A DNA stretch of 64,000 bases. Origin: Candidatus Dormiibacterota bacterium. GTDB taxonomy: Bacteria > Chloroflexota > Dormibacteria > Aeolococcales > Aeolococcaceae. The DNA is taken from assembly GCA_963718525.1 (NCBI GenBank), contig OY970355.1, forward strand, positions 544,001 to 608,000, in the 5' to 3' direction. The notes under the pieces were generated by a model. The model saw only the letters and a program-made list of their open reading frames with translations, did not search any database and had not been told where the DNA came from. The translations under genes were made by a program, and so were the position numbers. Of this stretch, positions 1 through 29,500 are shown one piece after another. The first letter of the stretch is position 1. Each line of letters starts with the position of its first letter.

Positions 1-3000
1 GGCGCCGTCAACGGCGCCTGCCTGACGGCGGGGCCGGTCTCCGCAACCACCTCGATCCCCAACTGCGCCGCGCCGCCTGACACCTCTGGCAGCGGGGCGC
101 TTCGCCTGACCACCAACGCCGGCAGCCAGGTCGGCGCTGTGTTCTATCAGGCAAGCCTGCCGACCACCGAAGGCCTGGACGTCACCCTCGACACCTATCA
201 GTTCAACGGCACCGGAGCCGACGGCATCGTGTTCGCGCTCGCGGCGGCCGATCCTTCGAATCCCACGCCTCCGACCAGTACCGGACCCCTCGGTGGCGAC
301 CTCGGGTACGCGGCGAACACCCAGGGGTCGCCGGGCACCGCGGGGATGCCGTACGGGTATCTCGGCATCGGCCTCGACGTCTACGGCAACTACGAGAACA
401 CGCCCCTCGCCGGTGGGACCGACTGCACCAATCCGTCCCCACTCGTCAACGGTACGGCATACCCCGAGGCGGTGACGGCACGCGGACCGGGCAACGGCAC
501 GCTTGGCTACTGCATCCTCGGGACGACCGCGACGATCTACAACAAGTCAAGCGGCGGCGGCAGTGGCGGCGGGACCATCAGCAACGTAGGCGCGGGCAAC
601 ACGCTCGACAAGCAGACCGCAACGTCGCGTGCAGGGGCCATGGTCCCGGTCGAGATGGCGATCAACCCGGCCGCTGCCGCGACCACGACCGGGAGCGGGC
701 TCACGGTCCCCGCAAGCTCATGGCTGATCGCATACACACCGATCGGGAGCGCGACCCAGCAGACGCTGATCGGAGCGCTGCCCACGACGAGCAACAACGC
801 CGACCTCGCAACCTTTCCTGCGGCGTGGATCAACCCCGTGACAAAGATCCCGTATCAGCTCACCTTTGGGTGGACGGCGTCGACCGGTGGCTCCAACGAG
901 TACCACGAGATCAACCAGTTGGTGGCGTCGACACTGAACGGCGCGGTGCCGGATCTGTCCCTGACCAAGTCCGACAACGAGAGCGGACAGATGATCGCGG
1001 GCAACCAGGCCGACTTCATCCTCGCGCCTGGGACGACCGCGGCCGGAGGAACCGAGGCGAACCCGCTGACCGTCACCGACACGCTTCCGGCGGGGATGAC
1101 CCCGGGCACCGCCACGAGCCCGTCCGACTGGGCGTGCACGACCACCGGCCAGGTGGTGACGTGCACGTACACGCCGCTGGTCGCGATTGCGGCCGGGACG
1201 ACGTTGCCGGACATCACAATCCCGGTCACGCTGTCGTCGTCCTTGAGCGGTACGGTCACCAATACCGCACGCATCTCGTCCATCGACGGATTGCCGGCGG
1301 TCAGCAACGACGCGGTGCAGGTCAGCACCTTCGCGGCGACGGCGCTGCCGTCGCCGCAGGCGTACCTGCAGCCGGTGACCTACACGGCTGCGCTCCCGAC
1401 GAGTGCCACGGGGACAGTGACCTTCCGCATCGGCGCCACCGTTCTGTGCACCACCACGCTGCCGGCGTTGAGCTGCACCGCGAGCAACGCTCCGGTCGGT
1501 GCCGACACGGTGACCGCCAGCTACTCAGGTGACTCAAACTTTGCTCCGCAGACAACCACGACCACGGTGACGATCACCAAGGCAACGCCGACCTTCACCG
1601 AGGCGGCGGCTCCCGCATCGATTCCATATGGCGCGCAGGACACGCTCTCCGTCGCCGGTCTGCCGGGCGGCGCAACCGGAACCGTCACATTCACCTCGGG
1701 TGGCTCCCCGCTTTGCACCACAACGCTGCCGACCCTGAGCTGCCAGACGACGGCCACCCTCGCGCCGGGCGTGTATCCGGTCACCGCAACCTACTCCGGT
1801 GACGGCAACTACAGCACCGCGACCGCGCTCGGCGCGAGCTTCACGGTGACTCAGCTGACAACGTCGATGAACGAATCGGCAGCGCCCGCGAGCGTCCCGT
1901 ACGGCACCGCCGACACGCTGTCGGTTGCCGGTTTGCCTGGTGGTGCAACGGGAACCGTGACGTTCACGTCGGGCGCATCGACACTGTGCGCCGTCACGTT
2001 GCCGACGCTGAGCTGCGCCACAGTGACGACGTTGACGCCGGGCACCTACCCGGTCACCGCGACCTACTCAGGTGACGTCTACTACCTCGCGACGACAGCG
2101 AACGGCGCCGGCTTCACCGTCACCAGAGCGACCCCGACACTCACTGAGGCGGCTGCTCCGGCGAGCGTGCCGTACGGCACCAGCGACACGCTCTCCGTGT
2201 CGGGATTGGCGGCGGGCGCCACGGGCACCGTCACCTTCACGTCCGGGGGATCGACGCTCTGCGTCGCAACGCTCCCCTCGACGAGCTGTCCAACGTCGAC
2301 GAGCCTCACTCCTGCAACGTACCCGGTCACCGCGACGTACTCCGGTGACAACCTCTATGGTGGCGCAACCGCGAGTGGGTCCAGCTTCGTCGTGACCAGG
2401 GCGACGACATCAATGACCGAAACGGCATCGCCCGCATCGATCGGATATGGGTCTCAGGACACGCTCTCTGAGGTGGGACTGCCTGCCGGCGCGACCGGAA
2501 CCGTGACCTTCACATCGGGCGGTTCCACCCTGTGCACCGCGCTCCTGGCGGCGACCAGCTGCCAGACGTCCGCCACGCTCGGGGCTGGGACATACCCGGT
2601 GACCGCAACCTACTCAGGTGACGTCAACTACAAGGGGACCATCGCCACGGGCGCCAGCTTCATGGTCACCAGGACGGACCCGGTGTTCACCGAGTCGGCA
2701 GCGCCCGCGAGCATTCCGTACGGCACGGCCGATACGCTGTCCACAACCGGCCTGCCTGCCGATGCCACCGGAACGGTGACCTTCACCTCCGGCGGATCGA
2801 CCCTCTGCATCGCGGCGCTGCCGGCGACGAGCTGTGACACATCAACGTCGCTGGCCCCTGGGCCCTACCCGGTAACCGCGATATATTCTGGTGACACCAA
2901 CTACAACGGCGCAACCGTTACTGGCGCCAGCTTCGTCGTCACCAAGGCTGACACCGCGATGGTCGAGTCGGCGGCGCCCGCATCCATCGCGTACGGATCC

Positions 3001-4455
3001 CAGGACACGCTGTCCGTGGCCGGCCTTCCCGGCGATGCGACAGGGACCGTGACCTTCACCTCGGGTGGATCGACGCTGTGCGTCGCCCCCTTGCCGGCCA
3101 TCAGCTGCCAGACCGCGACGACGCTGGTTCCGGGCACCTACCCGGTGACGGCCGTCTACTCAGGTGATGCCAATTACAACGGCACGACCGCAACGGGCGC
3201 CAGCTTCGTGGTCACCAAAGCCGACCCCTCGTTCATCGAGTCGGCAGCACCGTTGAGCATCTCCTACGGGACGGCCGACACACTGTCCACCGCCGGTCTC
3301 CCCGGCGATGCGACCGGCGTCGTGACGTTCACGTCCGGCGGGGCAACGCTCTGCATCGCCGCGCTGCCGGCGCTCAGCTGCCAGACATCGGCCACGCTGG
3401 CCCCTGGCACGTACCCAGTGACGGCGACCTACTCCGGCGATAGCAACTTCGGCGGCGGCATCGCAACGGGCGCCAGCTTCGTGGTGACGCGTGCCGGCAC
3501 GTCGATGACCGAATCCGCAGCGCCTGCAACGATTTCCTATGGGATGCAGGACACCCTGTCGGTCTCCGGACTGCCTGGAGACGCGACTGGAACCGTCATC
3601 TTCACCTCGGGCGGGTCGACGCTCTGCACGGCCTTGCTGCCGGCGATCAGCTGCCAGACCGCGACCACGCTGGTCCCGGGCATCTACCCGGTGACGGCGA
3701 CATACTCCGGCGACGGCAACTACAGCGGGACGACCGCAACGGGCGCGAGCTTCACCGTCACGAAGGCCGCCACCCCGCTGGCGGAGTCAGCCTCCCCAGC
3801 GGTGATCGTGTACGGCAGCACCGATACCGTCTCGGCTTCCGGGCTTCCGGCCGGGGCCACGGGGACCGTCACCTTCACCTCGGGAACGACGACGTTGTGC
3901 ACGACCACTCTCCCGGCGACGAGCTGCCACACCGCCGCGACGCTGATGCCGGCCGTATATCCGGTCACGGCCACGTACTCGGGTGACAGCAACAACAGTC
4001 CCGCCACAGCGACCGGCGCGCTGTTCACCGTCATCAAAGCGGATACGACCATGACGGTGCACGTCTCTCCGACGGAGACGGTGCGCGGCGCGCCTGTCAC
4101 GCTGTGGGTCACCGGTCTGCCACCCGGTGCCACAGGCACGGTGACCTTCACCTCGGGCAACGTCGTGCTCTGCACCGTGACGCTTCCGGCAACCAGCTGC
4201 ACGCCCACGATCAATCTCCCACCCGGATCGTATCCGGTCACCGCGACGTACTCGGGCAATAGCAACTACAACGGCTCGAACGCGGTCAACAGCGGCGTGC
4301 TCGGCGTCCTCGCGGCGGGTGCAGATCCGTCGGTTCCCGCAACCGGTGGCGTCCCGGACGGGCGCCGGACCTTCCTCGGTGCGCTGCTGGTCATGGCGGG
4401 TGGAGCATCGCTGGTGATCTCGCGGCGCTGGTGGAGCAACCACAGGACCGTCTGA
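1..4455 (+). CDS. Giant cell-surface protein: L-type (legume-like) lectin domain, DUF11-like domain, 11 Ig-like (Big_3) repeats, C-terminal VPATG-TM-basic sorting signal; 5' end lies outside the window
   Basis: Frame is open from base 1 (GAVNGACLTAG...GALRLTTNAGSQVGAVFYQ), upstream of the ORF call at 139. Lectin-like motifs GADGIVF, YLGIGLDVYGN, FGWTASTGGSNEYHEI; DLSLTKS...TVTDTLPAG (DUF11-like); 11 repeats of about 91 aa (TGTVTF...LC...SC...YPVTATYSGD); C-terminal PSVPATGG, hydrophobic helix, RRWW. Confidence 0.9.
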   Translation, partial: GAVNGACLTAGPVSATTSIPNCAAPPDTSGSGALRLTTNAGSQVGAVFYQASLPTTEGLDVTLDTYQFNGTGADGIVFALAAADPSNPTPPTSTGPLGGDLGYAANTQGSPGTAGMPYGYLGIGLDVYGNYENTPLAGGTDCTNPSPLVNGTAYPEAVTARGPGNGTLGYCILGTTATIYNKSSGGGSGGGTISNVGAGNTLDKQTATSRAGAMVPVEMAINPAAAATTTGSGLTVPASSWLIAYTPIGSATQQTLIGALPTTSNNADLATFPAAWINPVTKIPYQLTFGWTASTGGSNEYHEINQLVASTLNGAVPDLSLTKSDNESGQMIAGNQADFILAPGTTAAGGTEANPLTVTDTLPAGMTPGTATSPSDWACTTTGQVVTCTYTPLVAIAAGTTLPDITIPVTLSSSLSGTVTNTARISSIDGLPAVSNDAVQVSTFAATALPSPQAYLQPVTYTAALPTSATGTVTFRIGATVLCTTTLPALSCTASNAPVGADTVTASYSGDSNFAPQTTTTTVTITKATPTFTEAAAPASIPYGAQDTLSVAGLPGGATGTVTFTSGGSPLCTTTLPTLSCQTTATLAPGVYPVTATYSGDGNYSTATALGASFTVTQLTTSMNESAAPASVPYGTADTLSVAGLPGGATGTVTFTSGASTLCAVTLPTLSCATVTTLTPGTYPVTATYSGDVYYLATTANGAGFTVTRATPTLTEAAAPASVPYGTSDTLSVSGLAAGATGTVTFTSGGSTLCVATLPSTSCPTSTSLTPATYPVTATYSGDNLYGGATASGSSFVVTRATTSMTETASPASIGYGSQDTLSEVGLPAGATGTVTFTSGGSTLCTALLAATSCQTSATLGAGTYPVTATYSGDVNYKGTIATGASFMVTRTDPVFTESAAPASIPYGTADTLSTTGLPADATGTVTFTSGGSTLCIAALPATSCDTSTSLAPGPYPVTAIYSGDTNYNGATVTGASFVVTKADTAMVESAAPASIAYGSQDTLSVAGLPGDATGTVTFTSGGSTLCVAPLPAISCQTATTLVPGTYPVTAVYSGDANYNGTTATGASFVVTKADPSFIESAAPLSISYGTADTLSTAGLPGDATGVVTFTSGGATLCIAALPALSCQTSATLAPGTYPVTATYSGDSNFGGGIATGASFVVTRAGTSMTESAAPATISYGMQDTLSVSGLPGDATGTVIFTSGGSTLCTALLPAISCQTATTLVPGIYPVTATYSGDGNYSGTTATGASFTVTKAATPLAESASPAVIVYGSTDTVSASGLPAGATGTVTFTSGTTTLCTTTLPATSCHTAATLMPAVYPVTATYSGDSNNSPATATGALFTVIKADTTMTVHVSPTETVRGAPVTLWVTGLPPGATGTVTFTSGNVVLCTVTLPATSCTPTINLPPGSYPVTATYSGNSNYNGSNAVNSGVLGVLAAGADPSVPATGGVPDGRRTFLGALLVMAGGASLVISRRWWSNHRTV

Positions 4456-5675: not shown

Positions 5676-6451
5676 CGTCGACATCATTGATTCGCGTCGG
5701 TGAGCAGACCAGGCACATCTCGCTCGATGTGATTGCGGCGGAGCGTGGCGAGGCGGTCGAGATCGCACCGGGAAATGAACAGCTGGTGGTGATCCTGTCC
5801 GGGCGCGCTCAGGTCAGCATCGACGGTCAGGACTTCGGCGTCGTTGGCCGCCGAGCTGACGTGTTCGAGGGTGGCGGTGACGCGGTGTATGTGCCTCCTG
5901 CTGCATCGGCGGTGCTCGTGGGGCCCGCCGACGGCGGCGACGGTGTGTTGACTCTCGCCATTGCCGCTGCGCCGGCGGGCGCCCAACCGGCGGGCGTGGC
6001 GCGCATCATTCCAGCCGCAACGCAGCGAGAAGTCGTCGTTGGACGCGACAGCTGGGGACGGACCGTTCGTACGATCCTCGGGCCCGCGGATGATGCGTCG
6101 CGGTTGATCGTCGGTGAGACGGTGCACAACGGCACGGGCACCTGGTCGTCGTTTCCACCCCATCGCCACGATCGAGTCGCCGCGGATGAGGCACAGCTCG
6201 AGGAGGTCTACTACTACCGCATCCGCCCTGCCAACGGCTTCGCCGTGCAGGTGCGGTATGACCTCGACACCGGGGACGAGGATCTCCGCATCGCCCGCGA
6301 CGGCGACGCTGCGGCGATCACGTCTGGCTTCCATCCCGTCGTGGCTGCGCCCGGCCATGACCTGTACTACCTGTGGATCCTGGCCGGGGAGCAGCGTGCC
6401 ATGCGTGTGTTCATCGATCCCCGCTACCGCTGGTTGAACGAGCAGCAGTAG
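5672..6451 (+). CDS. iolB: 5-deoxy-glucuronate isomerase (IolB/KduI family)
   Basis: LIVGET, WSSFPPHRHD, LEEVYYY, GFHPVVAAPGHDLYYLW are characteristic IolB motifs. Confidence 0.88.
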   Translation: MTSTSLIRVGEQTRHISLDVIAAERGEAVEIAPGNEQLVVILSGRAQVSIDGQDFGVVGRRADVFEGGGDAVYVPPAASAVLVGPADGGDGVLTLAIAAAPAGAQPAGVARIIPAATQREVVVGRDSWGRTVRTILGPADDASRLIVGETVHNGTGTWSSFPPHRHDRVAADEAQLEEVYYYRIRPANGFAVQVRYDLDTGDEDLRIARDGDAAAITSGFHPVVAAPGHDLYYLWILAGEQRAMRVFIDPRYRWLNEQQ

Positions 6452-7169
6452 CGGGGGTCCGCCGGTGGTCGGCCTCGAACACGGGCTTCGAAAGCCGTCC
6501 GAGCGAGAGGCTCAGGCATGTCCACGCAACGCCAACGAGAAAGCCACCGATGACGTCGCTTGGCCAGTGGGCGCCGACGTAGATGCGGCTGAGCCCTGCG
6601 GCGGCCACGAGCATCGCGGCGAGAAACCAGGACGCGACGTAGAGAGGACGCGGAAGCCTGCGGGCCAAAAGCACCATCGCCAGCACGCTCAGCCAGACGA
6701 AGAACCCCACGTGCCCGCTCGGATAGCTGTATCCGAGCAGCTTGGACGTCGTGTGCGCGACACCCGTGGGCCGCGGCCGGCGAATCATGATGTTCACGAC
6801 GTTGTAGACAACGGAGTAGATGGCGGAGAAGGCCACCAGTGGCGTGGCGGGCCGGAAGAGCAGGAAGGTGATCACGATCACCGCAGCGCCAACCCCGAGG
6901 CCGACGAACCCCGAGAAGGCGGACACGAATGAGTTGAACCACGCAAAGGCCTGGCCGTTGACCGACTGGACGGCCACTTCGATCGGGTGGTCGAAGAAGA
7001 ACGGCGCAGGGTGAAGCGCCACACCCACAGAGAGGGCGACAAACAGGAGTCCAGCCACTATTGCGACCGACATCAGGGTCCGGTTGACGTCACCGGTGAG
7101 CCGGTGCAGCCAGGACCACGTGCTGGTTCGGCGTGCGGCCGCAGGAAATGTCGCGTCACGGGCCATCAT
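6411..7169 (-). CDS. PAP2-family membrane phosphatase
   Basis: RRPRP, YSYPSGH, SRIYVGAHWPSDV; several TM helices. Confidence 0.9.
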   Translation of the reverse strand: MMARDATFPAAARRTSTWSWLHRLTGDVNRTLMSVAIVAGLLFVALSVGVALHPAPFFFDHPIEVAVQSVNGQAFAWFNSFVSAFSGFVGLGVGAAVIVITFLLFRPATPLVAFSAIYSVVYNVVNIMIRRPRPTGVAHTTSKLLGYSYPSGHVGFFVWLSVLAMVLLARRLPRPLYVASWFLAAMLVAAAGLSRIYVGAHWPSDVIGGFLVGVAWTCLSLSLGRLSKPVFEADHRRTPATAARSTSGSGDR

Positions 7170-7174
7170 CCAAT

Positions 7175-7180
7175 ATTATA
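7175..7180 (-). promoter_or_regulatory. -10 box (TATAAT) 5 nt upstream of the PAP2 ATG; probable leaderless transcript
   Basis: Minus strand reads TATAAT-ATTGG-ATG in a 45-bp AT-rich divergent spacer; no RBS. Confidence 0.55.
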
Positions 7181-7214
7181 CCGTTAGTATCATGTTGAGC
7201 CCTAAGCGCCGCCT

Positions 7215-7967
7215 GTGAGTACGGGCGCCGTCGAATCGACGCTCGCGGATGGAGGTCAGGCAGCAAGCGAGATCCTGGCCGGCGAGCCCGGGCCGTCAGC
7301 CCGGCGATGGCTAGGCCCGCTGGCGCTGCTCTCGCTGCTGCTGTTCGCGGTCGTCACGATCCTGGTCGTCAGTGGCGTAACCCGGACCGGGTTCGATCTT
7401 CCGGTCGAGCACGCGATCCAGCACATCCCCTGGGGGCCGCTGACGTACTGGATGACTCTGACCAATGTCACCGGCGGCCTGATCCAGGACCTGTTGGGCA
7501 TCGCCGTGGTCCTGGCGCTCTTTCTCTGGGACCGAAGAGCGGGCTGGTTGATGGCGCTCGGTGCCCTCGGCAGCCTGATCGCACAGATCGTCAAGGTCTC
7601 GGTGGCGCGGCAGCGACCCACCGCCGACGTGGTCACCATCCTCAACCCGTCGAGTGGGTACAGCTACCCGAGCGGACACGCGATCTTCTTCACCTGGCTG
7701 GCGTTCATGCTCGCCATTGCCATATCGCCGCACGTCGGCCCACGCTGGCGGGTCGTTGTATGGATCGTCGCGGGTCTCGTGGTCGTCTTCGCGTGCATCG
7801 GTCGGATCTGGGCCGGAGCGCACTGGCCGACCGATGTCATCGGTGGATTCCTGCTGGGCGTCGCGTGGTCCGCATTCATTCTGTGGCTGCCGGAACGCTG
7901 GTTGCCGACTCCGAGCTCACGCTGGATTCCCAGGCGATGGAACGCATCGCGGCGGTCTCACGCATGA
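7215..7967 (+). CDS. PAP2-family membrane phosphatase (second, divergent copy)
   Basis: KVSVARQRP, YSYPSGH, GRIWAGAHWPTDV. Confidence 0.9.
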   Translation: MSTGAVESTLADGGQAASEILAGEPGPSARRWLGPLALLSLLLFAVVTILVVSGVTRTGFDLPVEHAIQHIPWGPLTYWMTLTNVTGGLIQDLLGIAVVLALFLWDRRAGWLMALGALGSLIAQIVKVSVARQRPTADVVTILNPSSGYSYPSGHAIFFTWLAFMLAIAISPHVGPRWRVVVWIVAGLVVVFACIGRIWAGAHWPTDVIGGFLLGVAWSAFILWLPERWLPTPSSRWIPRRWNASRRSHA

Positions 7968-8812
7968 GTCGCGGCCACGGTCCAATGACGCGGGTGCTCA
8001 TCGTCAGCCGCGGCGCGAAGCAGGTGACAGCGGCCGTGCAGCGCAAGCTGGATGCTGGTTTCCCCGGGTACGAGCAGATGGAGTTCGATCCGCGATCGGA
8101 TGTCTGGCGAAGGCTGAGCAGCCGCGCGACCGTAGTGGCTGCAGGCGGCGATGGCACCGTCGGGTTTGTGGCGAGGGCACTGGCGGGAAGCCGGCGCCGG
8201 CTCGGCATCCTGCCGCTGGGCACGTTCAACAACTTTGCGCACGGCCTTCGAATTCCAGCCAACCTCGATCGGGCGATTGCCGTTGTGCGAAAGGGCGCAA
8301 CCCGCCCCGTGACTCTCGGGAAAATCAACGGCCGGTACTTCCTGGAGGCGGCTGCGATCGGGGTCTTCGGAGAGGCGATCGTGCTGGGGGAAAAAGCCAA
8401 GGACCGTGCCTTCGGTGAACTCGCGCATGAACTCGGTGCCGTGGTCAGGGCGGAACCGTTTGCGTTCGCGACGAGCGGCGCGTTCGTCGCGCGCGGGCAC
8501 AGCCGCTCGCTCGTGTTCACGAACTCGCCGACGACCGGCTCACGCATCACGATAGGCGGGAACACCCCAACCGATCCATTCCTCGAACTGAACATCGAGG
8601 TCGGCGCGTCGCGCACCGACATCGTCACCCGCGTCGTTGCGTCGGCCGTCGGTGAGCATTCGAACGACGAAGGCATACGCTTCCAGTTCCGTTCCTTGAC
8701 GATCAGCACCAAGCCGCCCATCACGGTGGTGGCTGACAACGAGCACATCGGCAGAACGCCCGTCACCATCGAGGCGATTCCCAATGCGCTGCGCGTGATC
8801 GTGCCCGCATGA
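7964..8812 (+). CDS. Diacylglycerol/lipid kinase family protein (YegS/BmrU/DAGK-like)
   Basis: AAGGDGT, ILPLGTFNNFA, ADNE; ATGA overlap with the PAP2 stop sets the start at 7964. Confidence 0.88.
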   Translation: MSRGHGPMTRVLIVSRGAKQVTAAVQRKLDAGFPGYEQMEFDPRSDVWRRLSSRATVVAAGGDGTVGFVARALAGSRRRLGILPLGTFNNFAHGLRIPANLDRAIAVVRKGATRPVTLGKINGRYFLEAAAIGVFGEAIVLGEKAKDRAFGELAHELGAVVRAEPFAFATSGAFVARGHSRSLVFTNSPTTGSRITIGGNTPTDPFLELNIEVGASRTDIVTRVVASAVGEHSNDEGIRFQFRSLTISTKPPITVVADNEHIGRTPVTIEAIPNALRVIVPA

Positions 8813-9702
8813 CCGGCAGGGCCACGACGCCGGCACGTCGCGCACGTCGCCGGCGCACGACCACGAAACCCAGCGCACGTTCGGTGCAACGTCAAGCGAA
8901 GAAGGTCGTCACCAATCCCTGGGTTGAGCGCTCCGCACGCGCCGGCTACATCGTCCGCGGCCTCCTCTACGGCACCATGGGCGTGCTCGCTCTCGGATTG
9001 GCGGTCGGTCTCGACGCGGGCACCACCGATCAGCGCGGCGCGCTCGAGCTCCTCGGCGGGAGCGCGGTTGGACGGCTGTTCATGCTCGTGGTGGTGATCG
9101 CGCTCCTGGCGTACTCCGGATGGGGAGTCATCCGCGCCGTCTACGATCCGCTCCATCGCGGGGACGATCCACCCGGTATCGCCTCGCGTATTGGCTTTGC
9201 ATGGAGTGCACTCAACTACGCGGTGCTCGCGGTGTTTGCCGCGGGACTCCTGCTCGGTGCATCCAGTAGCAACGGCGGCGACGCCGTCCAGAGGATCGTC
9301 GCGTGGGCGTTGCGGTTGCCTGCGGGAGGAGCCATCGTCATCGTGGCGGGGGCCATCGGCATTTTCGGGGGCCTCAACCAGTTCGTGGATGCCTACAAAG
9401 CTGGATTTCGCAAGGATATGAAACGCAACCAGATGACTCCGGCGGCGCGGGCCACGGTCGATGGGCTCGGACGTTTCGGCATGGTCGCGCGCGGCGTGAT
9501 CTTCGGCGTGGTCGGGATCTTCGTCCTGGTTGCAGGACTACATCACGACGCGTCCGATGCGCACAGCTTCGGACCGGCGTTCGCCGCGGTGGCTCGCGAA
9601 CCGCTGGGGCACGTCCTGCTCGCGCTCGTAGCCCTGGGCTTCATCGCGCTCGGGCTCCACTCATGGGCCAACGCCCGCTGGGTGCGGATGCCACGCGGGT
9701 AG
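8809..9702 (+). CDS. DUF1206-domain membrane protein
   Basis: Repeated (A/G)R(A/F)G.(V)(A/R)RG..(Y/F) motifs, DQRGAL, about 6 TM helices; ATGA overlap with the upstream gene. Confidence 0.75.
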   Translation: MTGRATTPARRARRRRTTTKPSARSVQRQAKKVVTNPWVERSARAGYIVRGLLYGTMGVLALGLAVGLDAGTTDQRGALELLGGSAVGRLFMLVVVIALLAYSGWGVIRAVYDPLHRGDDPPGIASRIGFAWSALNYAVLAVFAAGLLLGASSSNGGDAVQRIVAWALRLPAGGAIVIVAGAIGIFGGLNQFVDAYKAGFRKDMKRNQMTPAARATVDGLGRFGMVARGVIFGVVGIFVLVAGLHHDASDAHSFGPAFAAVAREPLGHVLLALVALGFIALGLHSWANARWVRMPRG

Positions 9703-9765: not shown

Positions 9766-12483
9766 TCAGGCCGTGCGCGCCGCGCCGGCAAGCACAGAGG
9801 CAAACGCCATCGGCGCGGTGGGTACCGCGATGTTGTGTTCGAGCAACCTGCTCATCGCGATCGGCGACAGCGGCTGACCGAAGAGGAAACCCTGAGCGAG
9901 CTCGCAACCGAGGTCGTTCAGTTCGCGAAGGCACTCCTCGGTCTCGACCCCTTCGGCGATCACGCTGAGACCGAGACCGACACCGAAGTTGAACACCGAG
10001 TGGGCGAAGCCGATCGACTGCGTGGGGCCGCACAGCGAGGCGGTGAACGACCTGTCGATCTTGAGCACGTCGACGGGGAAGTCGCGCAGGCGGCTCAACG
10101 ACGAGTGGCCGGTTCCGAAATCGTCAAGAGCGATGCGTACGCCGAGCCCGCGCAGCGCGTTGAGGCAGCCGATGATCGGCTCGGTGTCATAGATGATGTC
10201 CGCCTCGGTCACCTCGAGGATCAGACGATGGGCGTCGAGGCCCGTGTCCTGCAGGACCCTCCGAACCTTGTCGACAAAGTCCGGCTCGCGGAGCTGGCGG
10301 ACAGCAACATTCACACTCACCGCAACGGGCTCGGCGCCATCGACCTCTGGCCAAGCGCGCGCTTCTTCGCATGCGCTCTGCAGGATCCACGTTCCCAGTT
10401 GCGTGATCAATCCCGTCTCCTCGACGAGGCTGATGAAGTCGTCAGGGAGGACCAGCCCGCGCGTGGGGTGGCGCCAGCGGAGCAAGGCCTCCGCCGCGAC
10501 GATGGTGCATGTCGCCACTCGCACGATGGGCTGATACACGAGCTCGAATTCGACCAACTCCACCGCGTGGTACAGGTCCGCCTTGAGGCGGTGGCGGCGC
10601 TGCACCGCGGCATACATGGACGGCTCGAACAGCTCCCAGCGCGACTTCCCCGAACTCTTTGCCGTGTACAACGCGAGGTCGGCATTCTGGAGCAACTCCT
10701 GCCCGTCGCAGACGGTGTCGACCGCTGTTGCGATGCCGATGCTCGCGTGCGTCAGCACCTCCTCGGACGCGATGCTGAATGGCACGTGGAGCGCATCGAT
10801 GACTCGCTCGGCGATGCGCACGGCCGTCGCCGGCTCGTCGATGCCGATGAGGAGGACGGCGAACTCATCACCACCCAACCGGGCTGCGACGTCGCCGGGA
10901 CGCAGGCACTGGCCGATGCGGTCGGCGATGGCCCGGAGCAGCTCGTCGCCGGCAGCATGACCGAGGCTGTCGTTGACGGTCTTGAAGTCGTCGATGTCGA
11001 TGAAGAGCACGCCGACGTGCTGCCCGGTCTGCGCCAGGGCCTGCTCAACGCGGGACCCGAAGAGGAGTCGATTGGCCATGCCCGTGAGCGGATCGTGCGA
11101 CGCCTCGTGCTGCAACTGCTCCTGCAGGACGGTGAGCTGTGACAGCGAGTGCTGCAGCCGTCCGCGCTCGAGGATCACCCCGGTCTGGTTGGCGAGCATC
11201 TCGAGCAGGCGGAGGTCCTCGTGGTCGAAACCGGTGACCTCGCCAAGACGGTTGGCGATCAGCATCGTCCCGACCATGTTGTTCTCGCCGCGGAGCACAA
11301 CGGCCATCGCGTCGCGCAGTCCGCGACGCTCCAGGAAACCGCCGGGGTCGCCGTCGGTCTTGCCGTGCGCACTGAGGAGCAGCGGCGAGTTGAGGAGCAG
11401 CCTGCTCATGAACTGGAGTTCCACGTCGTCGAGCGTCACGGCACTCATGAACTCGGTGTTCCGCTCCTTGTCGACGGTGGTGCGCACGACGGCGTCGCGC
11501 TCGCGGGTCGGAAGGAACGTGATCTCCGCGCGCTCGGCGCGGAAAACCTGACACGACTTGGTCAGCAGCGCGGCCACGGAGTCGTCGACAGCCTCGCTCC
11601 GTTGCAATTGCTTGCTCGACTGGTAGAGGAAATCGACCTGGTCACGCTTCTCGCGCTCGGCGATGTAGAACCGATAGGCGATGAAGACTCCCGCGGTTGG
11701 AATCGCCAGCAACCAGATCTCGGCGGGGTTCTCCCAGACGATGCGGACGCCGATCAGGGCAAGACAGGTGTTGACGATCGTGGCCGCCTGCGCGAACCCG
11801 AATGTCGAGAGGATCCCCCTGAGGTCCATGCGCCCTTCAGAGAATGAGATGGCGGCGAGGATCACCAGTGACTGGATGACACCGCCGGTGAGGACCGCCG
11901 CTAGAACGCCGACGAAGCTGAGCGCGCTCAGCGGATCGTGGTGGTCGACAAGATGCATGAAGAGCACGGCGACGACGCTGTTGGCGACGGTGAAGTTGGC
12001 GAGGTTGAAGGCCAGCTTCAGCGGCGACTGGCGGCGGTGGACCGACAATGCGAGCGCGGTCCCGGCAACCATCGCGAGCACCACGACAAGGGGCGGAGCG
12101 AAGAAGAAGCCCGCCACCAATGGCAGCTCACTGAGCGAGAAGGAGTGCGCGTCCCGGCGAAACTGGATGTGAACGACGAAGACCTCCGCCGCACAGAACA
12201 GCGGAATCAGCACCCACCAGGGGATCTGGCGCGGCGCCGGAATCTCGTGCAGGTTGGAGACAACCTTGACCAGGAGGACCACGGCGGTCGCCACGAGCAG
12301 AAGAGTCAGGAGGTGGACGCGGTGTCCCCGCCTGGACGAAGTTGTTGACCCCGAATCGACTGACGAGGCGGAGCCTTCGACCTCCCTGGCCATGCTCGAA
12401 TGCTCGGGGACATCCGGCTGATCTGAACTCGTTGTGCCAGCTCTGTTGCCGAGCGGTAGCAGGGCTATCGGCGGTGCGGACAT
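9766..12483 (-). CDS. Membrane-bound c-di-GMP enzyme: multi-TM sensor, GAF, GGDEF and EAL domains (true start may be 12393)
   Basis: About 6-7 N-terminal TM helices; GAF-like region ending FDHEDLRLLEMLANQ; HDPLTGMANR, DIDDFKTVND, RPGD-x5-GGDEF; AEALLRW, DDFGTGHSSL, AEGVE. Confidence 0.93.
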   Translation of the reverse strand: MSAPPIALLPLGNRAGTTSSDQPDVPEHSSMAREVEGSASSVDSGSTTSSRRGHRVHLLTLLLVATAVVLLVKVVSNLHEIPAPRQIPWWVLIPLFCAAEVFVVHIQFRRDAHSFSLSELPLVAGFFFAPPLVVVLAMVAGTALALSVHRRQSPLKLAFNLANFTVANSVVAVLFMHLVDHHDPLSALSFVGVLAAVLTGGVIQSLVILAAISFSEGRMDLRGILSTFGFAQAATIVNTCLALIGVRIVWENPAEIWLLAIPTAGVFIAYRFYIAEREKRDQVDFLYQSSKQLQRSEAVDDSVAALLTKSCQVFRAERAEITFLPTRERDAVVRTTVDKERNTEFMSAVTLDDVELQFMSRLLLNSPLLLSAHGKTDGDPGGFLERRGLRDAMAVVLRGENNMVGTMLIANRLGEVTGFDHEDLRLLEMLANQTGVILERGRLQHSLSQLTVLQEQLQHEASHDPLTGMANRLLFGSRVEQALAQTGQHVGVLFIDIDDFKTVNDSLGHAAGDELLRAIADRIGQCLRPGDVAARLGGDEFAVLLIGIDEPATAVRIAERVIDALHVPFSIASEEVLTHASIGIATAVDTVCDGQELLQNADLALYTAKSSGKSRWELFEPSMYAAVQRRHRLKADLYHAVELVEFELVYQPIVRVATCTIVAAEALLRWRHPTRGLVLPDDFISLVEETGLITQLGTWILQSACEEARAWPEVDGAEPVAVSVNVAVRQLREPDFVDKVRRVLQDTGLDAHRLILEVTEADIIYDTEPIIGCLNALRGLGVRIALDDFGTGHSSLSRLRDFPVDVLKIDRSFTASLCGPTQSIGFAHSVFNFGVGLGLSVIAEGVETEECLRELNDLGCELAQGFLFGQPLSPIAMSRLLEHNIAVPTAPMAFASVLAGAARTA

Positions 12484-12531
12484 CGCCGTGGGGACCAGCC
12501 ACCCCCGAGCTGTGCTGCGAAGGTCGCGGAC

Positions 12532-14304
12532 CTAACTCCAGTCGTAGTCGGACCAGCTCGAATCCGACCAGGATGCGCCCGACCATGAGGCGCCCGACCA
12601 TGAGGCTCCGGACCACGACGCTCCGGACCACGAGGCGCCCGACCACGACGCTCCGGACCACGAGGCGCCGGACCACGACGCCCCGGACCACGAGGCCCCG
12701 GACCATGAGGCTCCGGACCACGACGCTCCGGACCACGACGCTCCGTTGAAGATGCCGCCGTTCCACGCGGAGGCGTTCGTCTCGGCCGCAGCGAGTGCGG
12801 TGGTGTCGATGCTGTTGCCGAAGATGTCCTGCTCGCCGGTGAGGCCGTTGCCGTTGGTGTCAAGCACATGACGCGAGCCGCGGGACGCGTCGAGGCTGCC
12901 GGTGCCGTTCGAGGCCGGCCAGCTCTGCGCGTCGTTCGGCGTCGGCGCGTTGAGGACCGCTGCGAGGTTCAGCTCGCCGCTGCCCTTGAGCGATGTGCGG
13001 CCATACATGGAATGCGCGTGGGTGTCGAGCAACGCCTTGACCTGATCAGGCGTGAGGTTTGGTCGCTGGCTGAGCAGCAGCGCCGCAGCGCCGGACACGA
13101 CGGCGGCCGCCTGCGACGTTCCGCTCCCGAGGAAGAAACGATTGCTGACGGTCGCGCTCCCACCGAACTGGTCGTCGACGAATGAACCCGGATCGCGGAG
13201 CGAGACGACGTGGACGCCGGGAGCAGAGAGATCGGGGTTGCGCGTGCCGTCACCCTCGCTCGTGAAGCTTGCGGGCATGTGATAGCGGACGTAGGTCGTG
13301 TTCTCGGTGTTGGCCGCACCCACGGCGATGACGTAGGGATCGATCGCCGGGTCGTCAAGGCCGTTCGACCAGTTGCCCTGGTTGCCGTCGGCGACCACCA
13401 CGACGATGCCGTGCAACCATGCCTGCTCGGCCGCATACGCGAGCGGATCGAGGACGTAGCTCTGGTTGCTGTCGGTGCCATAGGACAGGTTGAGCACGCG
13501 GATGTTCATGCCGTTGTCGTTCTGGTGCTGCACCACCCAGTCGATGGCGGCGAGCACCTGGGACACGTCGGTCTCCCCCAGCGCATCCGCGACCTTGATG
13601 CTCACGATCTGCGCATCAGGAGCCATACCGAGGAAGTGCGTGGTATCGCTTGAGCTCACCGACGTCACCGCATCATCGCGGCCCGCGATGATCCCGGCCA
13701 TGTGCGTACCGTGACCGAAGGTATCGAGATACTGCAGCGACGGATCCTGCGATTCGAACGACAGATCGGGTCCATTGACCACCTTGCCCTGCGTGGTCAA
13801 CCCGTCAACCGGCGTCACGCCGGAGTCGATCAGCGCAACGCCAACTCCCTGGCCGGTGAACCCGGCGTTCCAGTACGCGTGGGCACCGTCCATCTGCTCG
13901 ATGTTGTACATGGAGTTGACGTCGGTGGCGGGGTTGTACGGGGTGCCCGGTAGCCCGTACGAGGCGCCGAGGAGCTGCACCGGCGCATTCAGGGTGACCT
14001 GTGCGACAGCGGGCGATGCCTCGAGCTCCGGGACCGAGCTTGCAGGGACGCTCGCCACGATGGCGTTGATCAGGCTGATGTGCTGCTGGATGTGGCCGCC
14101 CAGTGCCGTGATCTGCTGATCCGCGGCGCCACCCTCGGTGGGTTGCGTTCGCACGATGACGGAGACCAGGTGCGTGTCGGCGTGTGCCGTCGTCGCCAGC
14201 GCGCCGGCGCTGAGCATGAGAGCAGCGGCGGTCGCCGCCGCCGTGACCGTGCGGCGCTTGCGATCGTCCCAGCTGATGCCGTGTACTGGAGCCACCCCTG
14301 GCAT
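12532..14304 (-). CDS. Secreted S8 (subtilisin-like) serine peptidase with C-terminal GASWS tandem repeats
   Basis: Signal peptide (RKRR, hydrophobic stretch, AHA), I9-like propeptide, catalytic triad IDSG / GHGTH / GSGTSQA, tail (GASWS)12-DSSWS-DYDWS*. Confidence 0.93.
   Translation of the reverse strand: MPGVAPVHGISWDDRKRRTVTAAATAAALMLSAGALATTAHADTHLVSVIVRTQPTEGGAADQQITALGGHIQQHISLINAIVASVPASSVPELEASPAVAQVTLNAPVQLLGASYGLPGTPYNPATDVNSMYNIEQMDGAHAYWNAGFTGQGVGVALIDSGVTPVDGLTTQGKVVNGPDLSFESQDPSLQYLDTFGHGTHMAGIIAGRDDAVTSVSSSDTTHFLGMAPDAQIVSIKVADALGETDVSQVLAAIDWVVQHQNDNGMNIRVLNLSYGTDSNQSYVLDPLAYAAEQAWLHGIVVVVADGNQGNWSNGLDDPAIDPYVIAVGAANTENTTYVRYHMPASFTSEGDGTRNPDLSAPGVHVVSLRDPGSFVDDQFGGSATVSNRFFLGSGTSQAAAVVSGAAALLLSQRPNLTPDQVKALLDTHAHSMYGRTSLKGSGELNLAAVLNAPTPNDAQSWPASNGTGSLDASRGSRHVLDTNGNGLTGEQDIFGNSIDTTALAAAETNASAWNGGIFNGASWSGASWSGASWSGASWSGASWSGASWSGASWSGASWSGASWSGASWSGASWSGASWSDSSWSDYDWS
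12535..12744 (-). repeat. 14 x 15-bp coding tandem repeat: 12 x GASWS, then DSSWS and DYDWS
   Basis: 12565-12744 is 180 bp = 12 units, with varied synonymous codons (tcg/tcc/tca; ggc/gga/ggg; gcg/gcc/gca). Confidence 0.95.
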
Positions 14305-26561: not shown

Positions 26562-29500
26562 ATGAGGGGGAGGGTTGTACCGGGGCCGGCGGCATCGGGC
26601 GGACGTCGGGTCAGATCTGTTGTCCCGACGCGGCATCGTGGAACGCGGGCCGTTCGCCAGATCGGCGCAACTCTCACCGCCGGGGCTCTGTCGCTGTTTT
26701 CGGGCGGTATCATCGGCCACGCGCTGTCGGTCTCGACCACGACCCTGACGTCACCGACCAATCCGTCTGTGTGGGGGCAGCCGGTTGTCTTCACCGCGAC
26801 GATCACTCCGGTCGCGCCGGCGCCAACTGGGACAGTCACCTTCCAGGACGGTGGGAGCAACATTGCCGGGTGCGTCAACCGGCCGGTCGCAGCTCGGGTT
26901 GCCACCTGCACCACCGCAGCCCTCTCGGTCGGATCGCACATCGTTACCGCTGTCTATGGCGGCAACGCCACATACTCGACCAGCACATCAGCCCCGCTGA
27001 CCCAGGTGGTCGGCACGGGATCCACGACGACGGTTGTGGCCGCATCCGTCAACCCGTCGGTGAGCGGTCAGACAGTGACGTACACCACCACGGTCAGCGC
27101 GGTCGCGCCCGCCTCTGGGAAGCGTACCGGGACGGTGGCGTTTCTGGATGGCGGCGTCGTCATCGCCGGATGCGGTGCCAAGGCTGTCACCGCCGCGGGC
27201 ACGGCCACGTGCGTCATCGCCTACCCGGGTCCGGGGACGCACACCATCACCGCGATCTACAGCGGTGATGCCAATTTCACTGGTTCGACGTCCACTGCCC
27301 TCAGCCAGACGGTGAACTCCGGCACGACCGGCGTCGTGCTCAGCTCGTCAGCAAACCCCTCGAGCACCGGCGCGAACGTGACCCTCACCGCCAACGTCAC
27401 AGCCACGGCACCCGCATCGGGGACGCGGACCGGAACTGTCGAATTTCAGGTTGGCGGCGTCGACATCGCGGGTTGCGGTGCCCAGGTCGTGCCGGCGTCC
27501 GGGAAGGCCACATGCGTGACAAACACTCTGACCGTGGGCGCGAACACGATCACCGCCATCTACAGCGGTGATGCCAACTTCGCGGCGAGCACGTCGGCGC
27601 CCTTCACGCAGACGGTCAACCAGGGCGCGACCACAACCACGGTTAAGTCCTCGCTGAATCCTTCGATTACCGGGGTCACGGTCACCTTCACGGCGACCGT
27701 CACCGCGATCGCTCCCGCATCTGGGACGCGCACCGGCACCATCACCTTCGAGGACAGCGGTGTCGCCGTCGCCGGCTGCGCCGCTCAGATCCTCGGACTC
27801 GCGGGGACCGCGACGTGCGCGACGAACGCGCTCGCAGCCGGCGTGCATACGATCACCGCGGTCTACAGCGGCGACGGCAATTTCACCGCGAGCACGTCAG
27901 CGCCACTCACGCAGACGGTGGTCAGCACGACGACGACCACAGTCGTGTCCAGCGCGAATCCGTCGGTGTTCGGACAGAGCATCCAGTACACAGCGACCGT
28001 CGTCGGCGGTCCGATAGTCACCGGGACTATCACGTTCCGCGACGGCGGTGGCAACATCGCCGGTTGCGTCGCGGTGGCGATGATCGCAGGATCCGCGTCG
28101 TGCGCCGTGTCGCCCGCGCTGGGCTCGCGCAAGATCACCGCGGTCTACAGCGGTGACGCGAGCAATGCGGCGAGCACCTCTGCGGTGATGACCCAGGTCG
28201 TCACCGCTGACCCGACCACCACGGTGGTGACGGCGACGGTGAATCCGACGGTGTTCGGCCAGCCGGTGACCTTCACCGCAACCGTGACCGCCGACGCTCC
28301 GGGATCAGGCACACCGACCGGCAAGGTTGCCTTCGACAACGGCGCGGCCGCCATCGCTGGGTGCGGCGGGGTCATGTTGATCGCCGGTGTCGCCAGCTGC
28401 ACCACCAACGCGCTGGCGGTGGGTCTGCACTCGATCAGCGGCCACTACAACGGCAGTGCGAACGATGTGACCAGCACATCACCCGTCCTGACGGAAACCG
28501 TGAACCTGGGTTCGACCACGACGGTCGTCGGGTCGTCGCTGAACCCGTCGGTGTCCGGTCAGTCGGTGACCTACACGGCGACGGTCACCGTCACCGCGCC
28601 GGCAGCGGGCATTCCTGTAGGCACGGTCGACTTCGAAGACGGTGGCGTCACCATCGCGGGGTGCGCCGCGACGGCACTGAGTGCCGCTGGTACCGCTGCG
28701 TGCTCATTCGCATATGCCGGGTCCGGGCCGCACGCGATCACGGCGATCTACTCGGGTGGCATCGATTTCGCGGGCTCGGGATCGCCCATGTTGACGCAGA
28801 TCGTCAACCCGGCGTCGACGTCGACTACTGTCGCATCGTCGGTGAACCCGTCGGTGGCCGGCCAGTCGATGACCATCACCGCGTCAGTGAGCGTGATCGC
28901 CCCCGGAACCGGGAGGCCAACAGGCACGGTGATATTCCAGGACGGCGGCGTCACGATCACGGGTTGCGCCGCCGAGGCGGTGTCGGCCGCGGGCACCGCG
29001 TCGTGTGCAGTGTCGTTCGCCACAGTTGATGCGCACCCGATCGCGGCTGTGTACAGCGGCAACTCAAACTTCAGCGGCTCGACGTCGCCGATCCTCACGG
29101 AGACGGTCAACCAGGGCGCGACGGTGACGGTGGTGACCTCGTCGGTGGATCCATCGGTCTCCGGTCAGACTGTGATCTACACCGCGATTGTCACCGCGAC
29201 CGCGCCGGCCGCTGGCACCCCGAGCGGAACGTTGACGTTCATGGACGGCGCCACCACCATCAGCGGCTGCATCGCGCAGGCAATGGTCGGCGGCGTCGCA
29301 CCCTGCACGATCGTCTACGCCGGAGTCGGGGTGCACGCGATCACCGCCGTCTACAACGGTGATCCCAACTTCACGACCTCGACGTCTCCCGTCCTCACGC
29401 AGAGCGTCAATCAGGGAGCGACGTCCGCCCTGGTGACCTCTGCGGCGGATCCCTCGGTGTCCGGTCAGGCCGTCACGTATATGGTGACAGTCACCGCTGT

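What the first reader, a model, noticed from the sequence alone, without database searches (positions are those of the whole stretch)
9766..14304. Subtilase with a 14x xxxWS tail next to a membrane GAF-GGDEF-EAL sensor: candidate protease-generated peptide signal feeding c-di-GMP
Seen: a secreted S8 protease with an intact D/H/S triad ends in (GASWS)12-DSSWS-DYDWS. The gene 48-140 bp downstream on the same strand encodes an uncharacterised multi-TM input domain with GAF, intact GGDEF (RxxD I-site) and intact EAL. Established: subtilases self-process, and tandem short repeats in a precursor are a known way to release multiple copies of a peptide. Inference: the protease carries and clips its own Trp-containing pentapeptides, and the neighbouring TM domain senses them to set c-di-GMP. 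That would be a two-gene quorum-sensing-like circuit, possibly controlling the large adhesins nearby. I know no characterised system with this architecture.
Basis: partly seen in the sequence, partly recalled or inferred. Interest (0 to 1): 0.85.

Follow-up and report, generated by a model that had tools for sequence, protein, structure and literature searches.

The report
Trp-repeat-tailed protease paired with membrane sensor
A secreted subtilisin-like protease ending in a run of Trp-containing five-residue repeats is almost always encoded next to one family of membrane sensors in three bacterial phyla, which points to an undescribed protease-to-sensor signalling pair.

Summary
Window 12532-14304(-) encodes a 590-aa S8 subtilase with an intact triad that ends in (GASWS)12-DSSWS-DYDWS. 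The next gene, 48 nt downstream (9766-12483(-)), is 8TM-GAF-GGDEF-EAL with intact motifs.

The tail W-[ST]-G-x-[ST] (4-31 pentads) is a C-terminal module of S8 proteases in Actinomycetota, Chloroflexota and Dormibacterota. Of 61 tailed S8 genes with enough flank, 41 are directly followed by this TM domain and 49 lie in a cluster with it. In the reverse direction, 59 of 65 loci found through the TM domain have the tail just upstream. The same TM-GAF module carries either GGDEF-EAL or histidine-kinase outputs, with at least 8 switches.

The TM domain is not unknown. It is a divergent MASE9 (hhalign 99.1%), and its predicted fold matches ECF-transporter S components (Z up to 14.5), which bind small ligands inside the membrane. 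AlphaFold gives the tail no fold (pLDDT about 30), and its units differ mostly by synonymous changes.

Release of peptides is untested. A paralogous sensor in the same genome follows an HtrA-like protease instead. The nearby Ig-repeat proteins are not part of the module. I found no description of this pair in print.

The parts
12532..14304 (-). S8 subtilase gene, 590 aa. It comprises a signal peptide with an RR motif, a propeptide-like beta-alpha unit (aa 46-105), the catalytic domain (aa about 141-455), a conserved linker (aa about 456-510) and the Trp-pentad tail.
   Evidence: ORF. Pfam PF00082, E 2.7e-39. Triad invariant. AlphaFold pLDDT above 90 for aa 46-510.
12535..12774 (-). Trp-pentad tail. 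Two degenerate lead-in pentads (aa 511-520) are followed by 12 x GASWS, DSSWS and DYDWS (aa 521-590). The protein ends one residue after the last Trp.
   Evidence: AlphaFold pLDDT 28-34. Scanned alone, the tail hits Pfam Pentapeptide at 25.8 bits against a cut-off of 20.2.
12484..12531 (-). 48-nt spacer between the S8 stop and the first ATG of the sensor. The two genes are on the same strand, so co-transcription is likely but not shown.
   Evidence: Coordinates. The arrangement is the same in related loci.
9766..12483 (-). Sensor gene, 905 aa: MASE9-like 8-TM domain, GAF, GGDEF, EAL.
11599..12339 (-). MASE9-like membrane domain (aa about 49-295). Conserved polar residues are E100, H105, S116, E119, R150, K156 and N160. 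The outer loops are short, and loop 1 carries a PWW motif.
   Evidence: Alignment A2. hhalign against bona fide MASE9: 99.1%, E 8.4e-19. AlphaFold pLDDT above 90. VIA-align Z 14.5 to the ECF S component RibU.
11173..11559 (-). GAF domain (aa 309-437).
   Evidence: Pfam PF01590, E 2.1e-5, 25.5 bits against a cut-off of 22.4.
10642..11103 (-). GGDEF domain (aa 461-614) with GGDEF at 537 and the RxxD I-site RPGD at 528.
9871..10578 (-). EAL domain (aa 636-871) with EAL 665, DDFG 787 and EGVE 844.

Best explanation
The two genes form a conserved signalling module of monoderm bacteria.

Shown. A secreted S8 protease carries at its extreme C-terminus an apparently unstructured array of W-[ST]-G-x-[ST] pentads. 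The adjacent gene encodes a MASE9-family membrane domain plus GAF, wired here to c-di-GMP synthesis and breakdown and in other lineages to a histidine kinase.

Inferred. The MASE9-like domain has the predicted fold of a membrane-embedded small-ligand binder (an ECF S component). It perceives short Trp-containing peptides cut from the protease's own tail, by the protease itself or by sister molecules. The cell thereby reads the amount of active exported protease, and possibly cell density, and sets c-di-GMP accordingly.
For: Linkage, ascertained by the repeat. Of 61 tailed S8 genes with at least 900 nt downstream, 41 have the sensor immediately downstream on the same strand. Four more precede it within a tandem S8 array, 2 have it upstream on the same strand, and 2 are divergent.

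Linkage, ascertained by the TM domain. 59 of 65 informative metagenome loci have the Trp-period-5 repeat ending less than 700 nt upstream. Among the 43 with TM identity below 70%, 37 do.

Only these two genes travel together.

Output swapping on the same TM-GAF module. GGDEF-EAL, GGDEF alone, HisKA-HATPase and PAS-HK all occur, with at least 8 switches on the tree. This marks TM-GAF as the input that goes with the protease.

The tail behaves as a selected peptide array. In the window there are 0 non-synonymous differences among 12 units. Over 81 arrays there are 1556 synonymous against 834 non-synonymous codon differences between adjacent units. Of 74 proteins with a known end, 52 stop exactly one residue after the last Trp.

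AlphaFold gives no fold for the tail, while the rest of the protein is confident.

Sensor fold. The top 15 of 48,161 chains are all ECF S components (Z 14.5 to 9.7), and the next hit has Z 7.5. Foldseek gives the same family, weakly.

The preprint that defines MASE9 proposes ligand binding within the membrane (passages read).

From my own knowledge, not from a call: subtilisins favour large hydrophobic P1 residues, and Bacillus Phr pentapeptides are matured by secreted subtilisin-family proteases.
Against: No data show that the tail is cleaved or that any peptide is released.

Only 747 of 1127 units equal their array's majority unit, so many arrays would yield peptide mixtures.

The variable residue x flips between near-identical sensors, which argues against pherotype-like specificity.

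Twelve of 61 tailed S8 genes have no sensor within the fetched 8 kb.

One HK clade of the sensor lacks any S8 neighbour (5 loci).

In the window's own genus the closest paralogous sensor follows an HtrA-like S1 protease without Trp repeats (7 of 7 loci). A built-in tail is therefore not required for a protease-sensor pairing.

The tail alone passes Pfam's pentapeptide-repeat threshold, so a folded solenoid is not excluded.

The fold match rests on a predicted model, and helical bundles can reach high Z by chance (note).
Confidence: 0.4

Rival explanations
1. Tethered-tail model. The Trp/Ser/Gly-rich tail is not cut up. It lies at the membrane interface, holds the exported protease at the cell surface and contacts the MASE9-like domain directly, so the sensor reports occupancy by the intact protease.
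For: The outer loops of the sensor are very short, and the one conserved outer motif is PWW. The tail has no predicted fold. The linkage evidence is the same as for the main model. Array length varies freely from 4 to 31 pentads, as expected of a spacer or tether.
Against: An S-component-like pocket suits a small ligand better than a roughly 70-residue chain. The strong per-unit purifying selection is more than a tether needs.
Confidence: 0.2
2. General proteolysis-product sensing. The sensor binds a small product made by the neighbouring protease from other substrates (envelope or environmental proteins). The tail serves the protease itself, for example in secretion, retention, substrate binding or autoinhibition.
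For: A paralogous MASE9-like GGDEF-EAL sensor in the same genome follows a Trypsin_2-PDZ protease in 7 of 7 loci of the genus, while its nearest homologues in other genera follow tailed S8 genes. The sensor fold is that of a small-ligand binder.
Against: Outside that one genus-level switch, the sensor is linked to tailed S8 genes specifically. No untailed S8 was seen next to the sensor in 65 informative loci.
Confidence: 0.2
3. The tail is an ordinary pentapeptide-repeat beta-helix domain, and the two genes are merely co-expressed or co-regulated without molecular contact.
For: Pfam PF00805 scores 25.8 bits against a cut-off of 20.2 on the tail alone. Some database relatives carry precomputed PF00805 or PF13576 hits.
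Against: In the full protein the score is below the cut-off, 16.2 bits. AlphaFold with 80 sequences gives pLDDT about 30 for the tail. The position two residues before Trp, which would face inward, holds N, R, Q, K or L in many arrays. Linkage that survives output swaps and holds across three phyla is hard to explain by co-expression alone.
Confidence: 0.1
4. Inside-out control as in LapD/LapG. The c-di-GMP protein controls the protease from inside the cell.
For: On the surface there is a membrane GGDEF-EAL protein next to a secreted protease, with large Ig-repeat surface proteins in the window.
Against: The GGDEF and EAL motifs are intact, not degenerate. There is no sizeable outer domain to hold a protease. 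The same input module is fused to histidine kinases, which are not second-messenger receptors. The Ig-repeat genes are not conserved with the pair.
Confidence: 0.05

Closest known systems
MASE9 membrane sensor domain (Pfam PF20972; defined in the HD-GYP survey preprint 10.1101/2021.11.05.467447, passages read)
   Same: Both have 8 TM segments with two short ones forming a hairpin, polar residues in the membrane core and promiscuous outputs. The profile-profile match is 99.1%. 14 of 40 members hit PF20972 at E <= 1. ESM Atlas neighbours are MASE9 clusters.
   Different: The window's own domain does not reach the Pfam threshold. This branch is followed by GAF and is tied to a tailed S8 gene. The passages I read name no partner or ligand for MASE9.
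ECF-transporter S components (RibU, ThiT, BioY, FolT, CbiM/NikM)
   Same: The predicted six-helix core (aa about 85-255) superposes with Z 14.5 to 9.7. For RibU, 159 of 170 residues align at 2.7 A.
   Different: Sequence identity is only 5-12%. The sensor has extra flanking helices and is fused to signalling domains. EcfT/EcfA genes were not looked for. This is a fold resemblance, not family membership.
Bacillus Phr/Rap and other peptide quorum-sensing systems (Agr, ComX/ComP); recalled, not taken from a call
   Same: These use short peptide signals (Phr signals are pentapeptides) matured by secreted subtilisin-family proteases, and Agr and ComP have multi-TM sensor kinases.
   Different: Here the putative precursor is fused to the protease itself as up to 31 tandem copies. 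The sensor domain is MASE9-like. The output is c-di-GMP or a kinase. No separate precursor gene was found.
Multi-copy peptide precursors cut by subtilases (yeast alpha-factor/Kex2, fungal dikaritins); recalled
   Same: Both have tandem near-identical short units kept by purifying selection and a subtilase as the processing enzyme.
   Different: Those precursors are separate proteins with dibasic spacer sites. Here the units abut without spacers and sit on the enzyme.
Pentapeptide-repeat proteins (PF00805)
   Same: Both have a five-residue period, and the tail alone passes the Pfam threshold.
   Different: Trp takes the place of the central Leu/Phe, the inward-facing position is variable and often polar, and no beta-helix is predicted.
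LapD/LapG
   Same: Both pair a membrane GGDEF-EAL protein with an extracytoplasmic protease.
   Different: Here the catalytic motifs are intact, there is no periplasmic docking domain, the protease is a serine S8 and not a Cys protease, and kinase-output variants exist.

Membership tests
Peptidase S8 (subtilase) | Pfam PF00082 above the gathering score | tested here: met
   135.6 bits against a cut-off of 21.8.
Peptidase S8 (subtilase) | Asp-His-Ser triad in that order, plus the oxyanion Asn | tested here: met
   D160, H198, S397 and N308 are invariant in 80 sequences.
T7SS mycosin (TIGR03921) | Equivalog score above the cut-off | tested here: not met
   144.3 bits against a cut-off of 278.75.
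Pentapeptide-repeat family (PF00805) | Pfam gathering score | tested here: inconclusive
   The tail alone scores 25.8 against 20.2. The full protein scores 16.2 against 20.2.
Pentapeptide-repeat family (PF00805) | Right-handed quadrilateral beta-helix with a small inward residue two positions before the central hydrophobic residue | tested here: inconclusive
   AlphaFold pLDDT is 28-34 with no strands in the tail. The position two before Trp is S32, A23, G13, N10, T5, L5, R3 per cent. The family consensus is recalled, not taken from a call.
MASE9 (PF20972) | Pfam gathering score | tested here: not met
   The window's domain gives no hit at E <= 10. 14 of 40 relatives hit at E <= 1, best 1.1e-4. 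L105 scores 23.6 against 24.3.
MASE9 (PF20972) | Homology to bona fide members at profile level | tested here: met
   hhalign of A2 against 15 above-threshold MASE9 domains: 99.1%, E 8.4e-19, 194 columns.
MASE9 (PF20972) | 8 TM segments with two short ones forming a hairpin, and polar residues in the membrane core | tested here: met
   Hydropathy, AlphaFold helices, conserved E/H/S/E/R/K/N. The definition comes from passages read.
GGDEF diguanylate cyclase / EAL phosphodiesterase | Catalytic motifs: GGDEF with the RxxD I-site; EAL, DDFG, EGVE | tested here: met
   Enzyme activity cannot be tested here.
ECF-transporter S component | Six-helix S-component fold | tested here: met
   Z 14.5, rmsd 2.7 A, 159 of 170 residues aligned; the top 15 hits are all S components. 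This rests on a predicted model.
ECF-transporter S component | Works with an EcfT/EcfAA' energising module as a transporter | not tested
   Not searched. The domain is fused to GAF and output domains, so I treat it as a fold relative only.
Peptide quorum-sensing circuit | A released peptide that activates the sensor | not testable with these tools
   This needs LC-MS and sensor assays.
LapD/LapG-type inside-out system | A degenerate c-di-GMP receptor with a periplasmic protease-docking domain | tested here: not met
   The motifs are intact. The outer loops are about 5-15 residues. Kinase-output variants exist.

The most novel reading that the evidence does not exclude
The protease is its own pheromone precursor. 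Each exported molecule carries up to about 30 copies of a Trp pentapeptide. These are clipped off outside the cell and bind, within the membrane, to an S-component-like MASE9 domain that sets c-di-GMP or a phosphorelay. This would be a self-contained two-gene circuit reporting quorum or protease activity, spread through Actinomycetota, Chloroflexota and Dormibacterota, and it would give the first ligand for any MASE9 domain.
Probability: 0.3. Interest if true: 0.9.

Novelty: new variant of a known kind. Interest (0 to 1): 0.78.

Why it matters
Most membrane-embedded (MASE-type) input domains of c-di-GMP enzymes and histidine kinases have no known signal. This finding ties one branch of MASE9 to a specific, conserved partner gene and to a concrete candidate ligand that can be synthesised. 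The predicted S-component-like fold also tells where to look for a binding pocket.

If the tail is the signal, this is a new way to encode a peptide signal: as a multi-copy tail on the processing enzyme. The module is common in soil and freshwater lineages that are hardly studied.

If the tail is not the signal, the pair is still a new, widespread protease-sensor module that needs an explanation.

Tried and rejected
Co-folding. Complex prediction with the tail (aa 500-590) and the TM domain (aa 45-300) gave no verdict, score 0.00. It is neither support nor counter-evidence.

Expression. The look-up of sequencing runs listed no RNA holder. The one run laid was 'probably DNA' contigs of a relative. 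Nothing can be said on transcription or co-transcription.

Adhesin control. The window's large ORFs, 139-4455 and 26562-31352, are Big_3_5 Ig-repeat proteins. They and 13 other neighbours are not conserved with the pair.

Diderm phyla. The DNA-pattern hits in Myxococcota, Planctomycetota, cyanobacteria and Proteobacteria were other frames of simple repeats, not S8 tails.

Stand-alone precursors. All 65 short proteins (30-323 aa) matching the tail were S8 fragments. The six I read all contain the S8 C-terminal helix and linker.

Response regulators. None was found among 9 ORFs downstream of six kinase-type sensors. My choice of ORFs may have missed some.

W_rich_C (PF07483). A 2008 survey lists this domain with subtilases (one passage of PMC2605481 read). 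It did not match the tail at E <= 10.

Solved structures. A sequence search with the TM profile found nothing. The nearest solved S8 is 3afg, E 1.2e-32, over the catalytic domain only.

Literature. Searches found no paper on this repeat or this gene pair. The library lacks most subscription journals.

Full report
1. What is in the window

ORF 12532-14304(-) encodes a 590-aa protein with an N-terminal signal-like segment, Pfam Peptidase_S8 (E 2.7e-39) and a tail of 12 GASWS units followed by DSSWS and DYDWS. Tandem Repeats Finder sees the array at 12566-12745 with period 15, 12.0 copies and 87% matches. D160, H198, S397 and N308 are invariant in an alignment with 79 database relatives. The protein is not a mycosin: TIGR03921 scores 144 bits against a cut-off of 279.

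The next ORF on the same strand, 9766-12483(-), starts 48 nt after the S8 stop and encodes 905 aa. It has a hydrophobic N-terminal third, then GAF, GGDEF and EAL, with GGDEF, the RxxD I-site, EAL, DDFG and EGVE all present.

2. The tail is a selected, widespread module of S8 proteases

Within the window, the 12 GASWS units differ only at synonymous third positions.

In the window's genus, 30 of 36 other genomes hold the orthologue, against 0 of 24 genomes of the neighbouring family. I fetched 30 stretches. 26 show a complete tail of roughly 9-16 pentads of G[ASG]SWS ending in an acidic variant. Two are frameshifted or cut, one is cut by a contig end, and one was not printed by my script.

A word search with the tail alone found 684 proteins at E <= 0.001 among 8000 candidates scored. 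All 120 listed carry PF00082.

These hold 103 repeat ORFs, of which 78 have an S8 domain. The other 25 are edge fragments or other-frame artefacts. Judging by record titles, the real carriers are Actinomycetota (Acidimicrobiia, Actinomycetes, Thermoleophilia), Chloroflexota and Dormibacterota. Hits in diderm phyla were spurious.

Unit composition in the register starting at W is W; S70/T20; G93; x = S32, A23, G13, N10, T5, L5, R3; S48/T42 (per cent). Arrays have 4-31 pentads, median 15. Of 74 proteins with a known end, 52 stop exactly one residue after the last periodic Trp.

Over 81 arrays, adjacent units show 1556 synonymous and 834 non-synonymous codon differences. Gly is the most constrained position and x the least. 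747 of 1127 units equal their array's majority unit.

No stand-alone repeat protein was found among 65 short hits.

Ascertained by the repeat. Of 61 tailed S8 genes with at least 900 nt of downstream sequence:
- 41 are followed immediately, on the same strand, by a homologue of the window's TM domain;
- 4 precede it inside a tandem array of five tailed S8 genes (L127);
- 2 have it upstream on the same strand;
- 2 are divergent from it;
- 12 show none in the fetched 8 kb.

Ascertained by the TM domain. A scan with a conserved core motif gave 242 confirmed relatives in metagenome contigs, of which 80 were kept. Of the 65 with at least 450 nt upstream, 59 have a Trp-period-5 repeat ending within 700 nt upstream on the same strand. 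Among the 43 with less than 70% TM identity to the window, 37 do. The six negatives are five members of one kinase-output clade that lies beside an aldehyde dehydrogenase, and L231.

None of 15 other window genes travels with the pair beyond close kin.

4. Output swapping

The same TM-GAF module is fused to GGDEF-EAL, to GGDEF alone (L076), to HisKA-HATPase (L107, L142, L054, L091, L230, L236, L247) or to PAS-HisKA-HATPase (L077, L105). In each of these it sits directly after a tailed S8 gene. In the 5.8-billion-protein collection, the 120 best TM-domain relatives fall into these same two main architectures.

I built a FastTree of 111 non-redundant TM domains. The set pools repeat-ascertained, TM-ascertained and paralogue-ascertained loci, so the proportion that follows is inflated by the repeat-ascertained part. 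On this tree the output state changes at least 8 times, and 97 of 108 rows with a known neighbour are linked to a tailed S8 gene. This pattern is what one expects of an input domain whose signal depends on the neighbouring gene.

5. What the TM domain is

Pfam gives no hit for the window's domain. Several other lines point to MASE9:
- 14 of 40 relatives hit MASE9 (PF20972) at E <= 1.
- One divergent relative scores 23.6 bits against the 24.3 cut-off.
- A profile of the family matches a profile of 15 above-threshold MASE9 domains at 99.1% probability, E 8.4e-19, over 194 columns.
- The ESM Atlas neighbours are MASE9 clusters.

The preprint that defines MASE9 describes 8 TM segments with a short intramembrane hairpin and charged residues in the membrane core. 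It proposes ligand binding within the membrane and names only one, poorly expressed, characterised member (passages read). This matches the window's domain.

AlphaFold models the domain confidently, with pLDDT above 90 across the membrane part. In an all-against-representatives structural search, the 15 best chains of 48,161 are all ECF-transporter S components: RibU at Z 14.5 with 159 of 170 residues at 2.7 A, then NikM/CbiM, FolT, BioY, ThiT, BtuM and PanT down to Z 9.7. The next, unrelated hit has Z 7.5. Foldseek ranks the same family first, but weakly (best E 0.011).

S components bind small substrates in a membrane-embedded pocket open to the outside. That statement is established knowledge, recalled. 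The fold match rests on a predicted model and on helical bundles, for which high Z values are more common (note).

6. What the tail is

Scanned alone, the tail passes Pfam's pentapeptide-repeat threshold (25.8 against 20.2). In the full protein it does not (16.2). AlphaFold with 80 sequences models residues 46-510 at pLDDT above 90, but gives the tail a pLDDT of 28-34 with no secondary structure. The position that would face the helix interior is often N, Q, R, K or L. A canonical pentapeptide beta-helix is therefore not supported, though it is not excluded.

7. A complication

The window's genome has four clear paralogues of this TM domain and one weak match. Only the window's copy has a Trp repeat upstream.

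The closest paralogue is a TM-GAF-GGDEF-EAL protein of 885 aa. It lies 204 nt downstream, on the same strand, of a Trypsin_2-PDZ (HtrA-like) protease. This holds in 7 of 7 loci of the genus.

Among the 22 other loci examined (29 in all, the unpublished genome's locus left out), 13 from other genera and 5 from this genus follow tailed S8 genes, and 4 show neither. On the tree, the HtrA-linked clade is nested among S8-linked ones.

So a secreted serine protease next to this sensor recurs with two different protease clans. This suggests that protease activity, and not only the tail, matters.

8. Mechanism

Shown: the conserved two-gene unit, the input-module behaviour of TM-GAF, selection on the tail units, and intact catalytic motifs.

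Inferred: the sensor binds a small ligand in the membrane, and that ligand comes from the tail.

I rate functional coupling of the two genes at about 0.8. I rate sensing of tail-derived short peptides at about 0.4. The two main rivals, each at about 0.2, are contact with the intact membrane-interface tail and sensing of other proteolysis products.

The x residue changes at least 45 times among 94 rows on the tree, including between the window (GASWS) and its nearest relative (GSSWS). If peptides are the signal, recognition must therefore rest on the Trp, Gly and Ser/Thr positions.

A LapD/LapG-like inside-out model is disfavoured by the intact motifs, the lack of an outer domain and the kinase-output variants.

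9. Novelty

Searches of the paper library for the repeat words, for MASE9 and for combinations of subtilase, pentapeptide repeat, GGDEF and tryptophan-rich found no description of this pair. Supplements were closed and subscription journals are mostly absent from the library.

I class the finding as a new variant of protease-matured peptide signalling with a membrane sensor. It adds a first candidate partner and ligand for a MASE9 branch and a predicted S-component-like fold for that domain.

10. Taxon

Sources name relatives with about 82% identity in the matched TM-domain region as Candidatus Dormibacterota MAG proteins. I did not try to identify the record itself.

Noticed in passing
Outside the window: G000:C1 about 413.4-417.6 kb (L272:4464-5774 and 5979-8636): A paralogous pair. 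An HtrA-like Trypsin_2-PDZ protease is followed 204 nt later by a MASE9-like-GAF-GGDEF-EAL protein. The pair is conserved in 7 of 7 loci of the genus, with a LytR_cpsA_psr gene nearby.
   Followed up: yes
window 139-4455(+) and 26562-31352(+): Two very large proteins made of 11 and 15 Big_3_5 bacterial Ig-like repeats. They are not conserved with the protease-sensor pair.
   Followed up: partly
window 6411-7169(-) and 7215-7967(+): Two divergently placed PAP2-family membrane phosphatase genes. A DUF1206 membrane protein lies at 8809-9702(+).
   Followed up: no
L127 (whole locus); also L059, L109, L151: Tandem arrays of tailed S8 genes: five in a row followed by one sensor in L127, and two each in the other three loci. 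The paralogues carry different units, for example GSTWS and GATWS in L127.
   Followed up: partly
L109:613-4018: Two tailed S8 proteins whose Trp array is followed by a short Lys/Arg/Pro-rich C-terminal extension, instead of ending right after the last Trp.
   Followed up: no
L058 and L070: Variant units with two tryptophans (GATWW, GSSWW). They are still next to a MASE9-like sensor.
   Followed up: no
G029:C1:2040715-2042119, G030:C20:611928-613342, G015:C108:3914-5571, G036:C60:148410-150131: The S8 orthologue appears split into two frames in three genomes and has one in-frame TAG in a fourth. These may be pseudogenes or assembly errors.
   Followed up: no
L215, L217, L221, L224, L235: One clade of the MASE9-like-GAF histidine kinases has no S8 neighbour. 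It lies head-to-head with an aldehyde dehydrogenase gene.
   Followed up: partly
window S8 aa about 456-510 (nt about 12775-12939): A conserved linker with a G-E-x-D-I-F-G motif between the catalytic domain and the tail. AlphaFold models it at pLDDT above 90, packed on the enzyme. Some members of the genus lack most of it.
   Followed up: no
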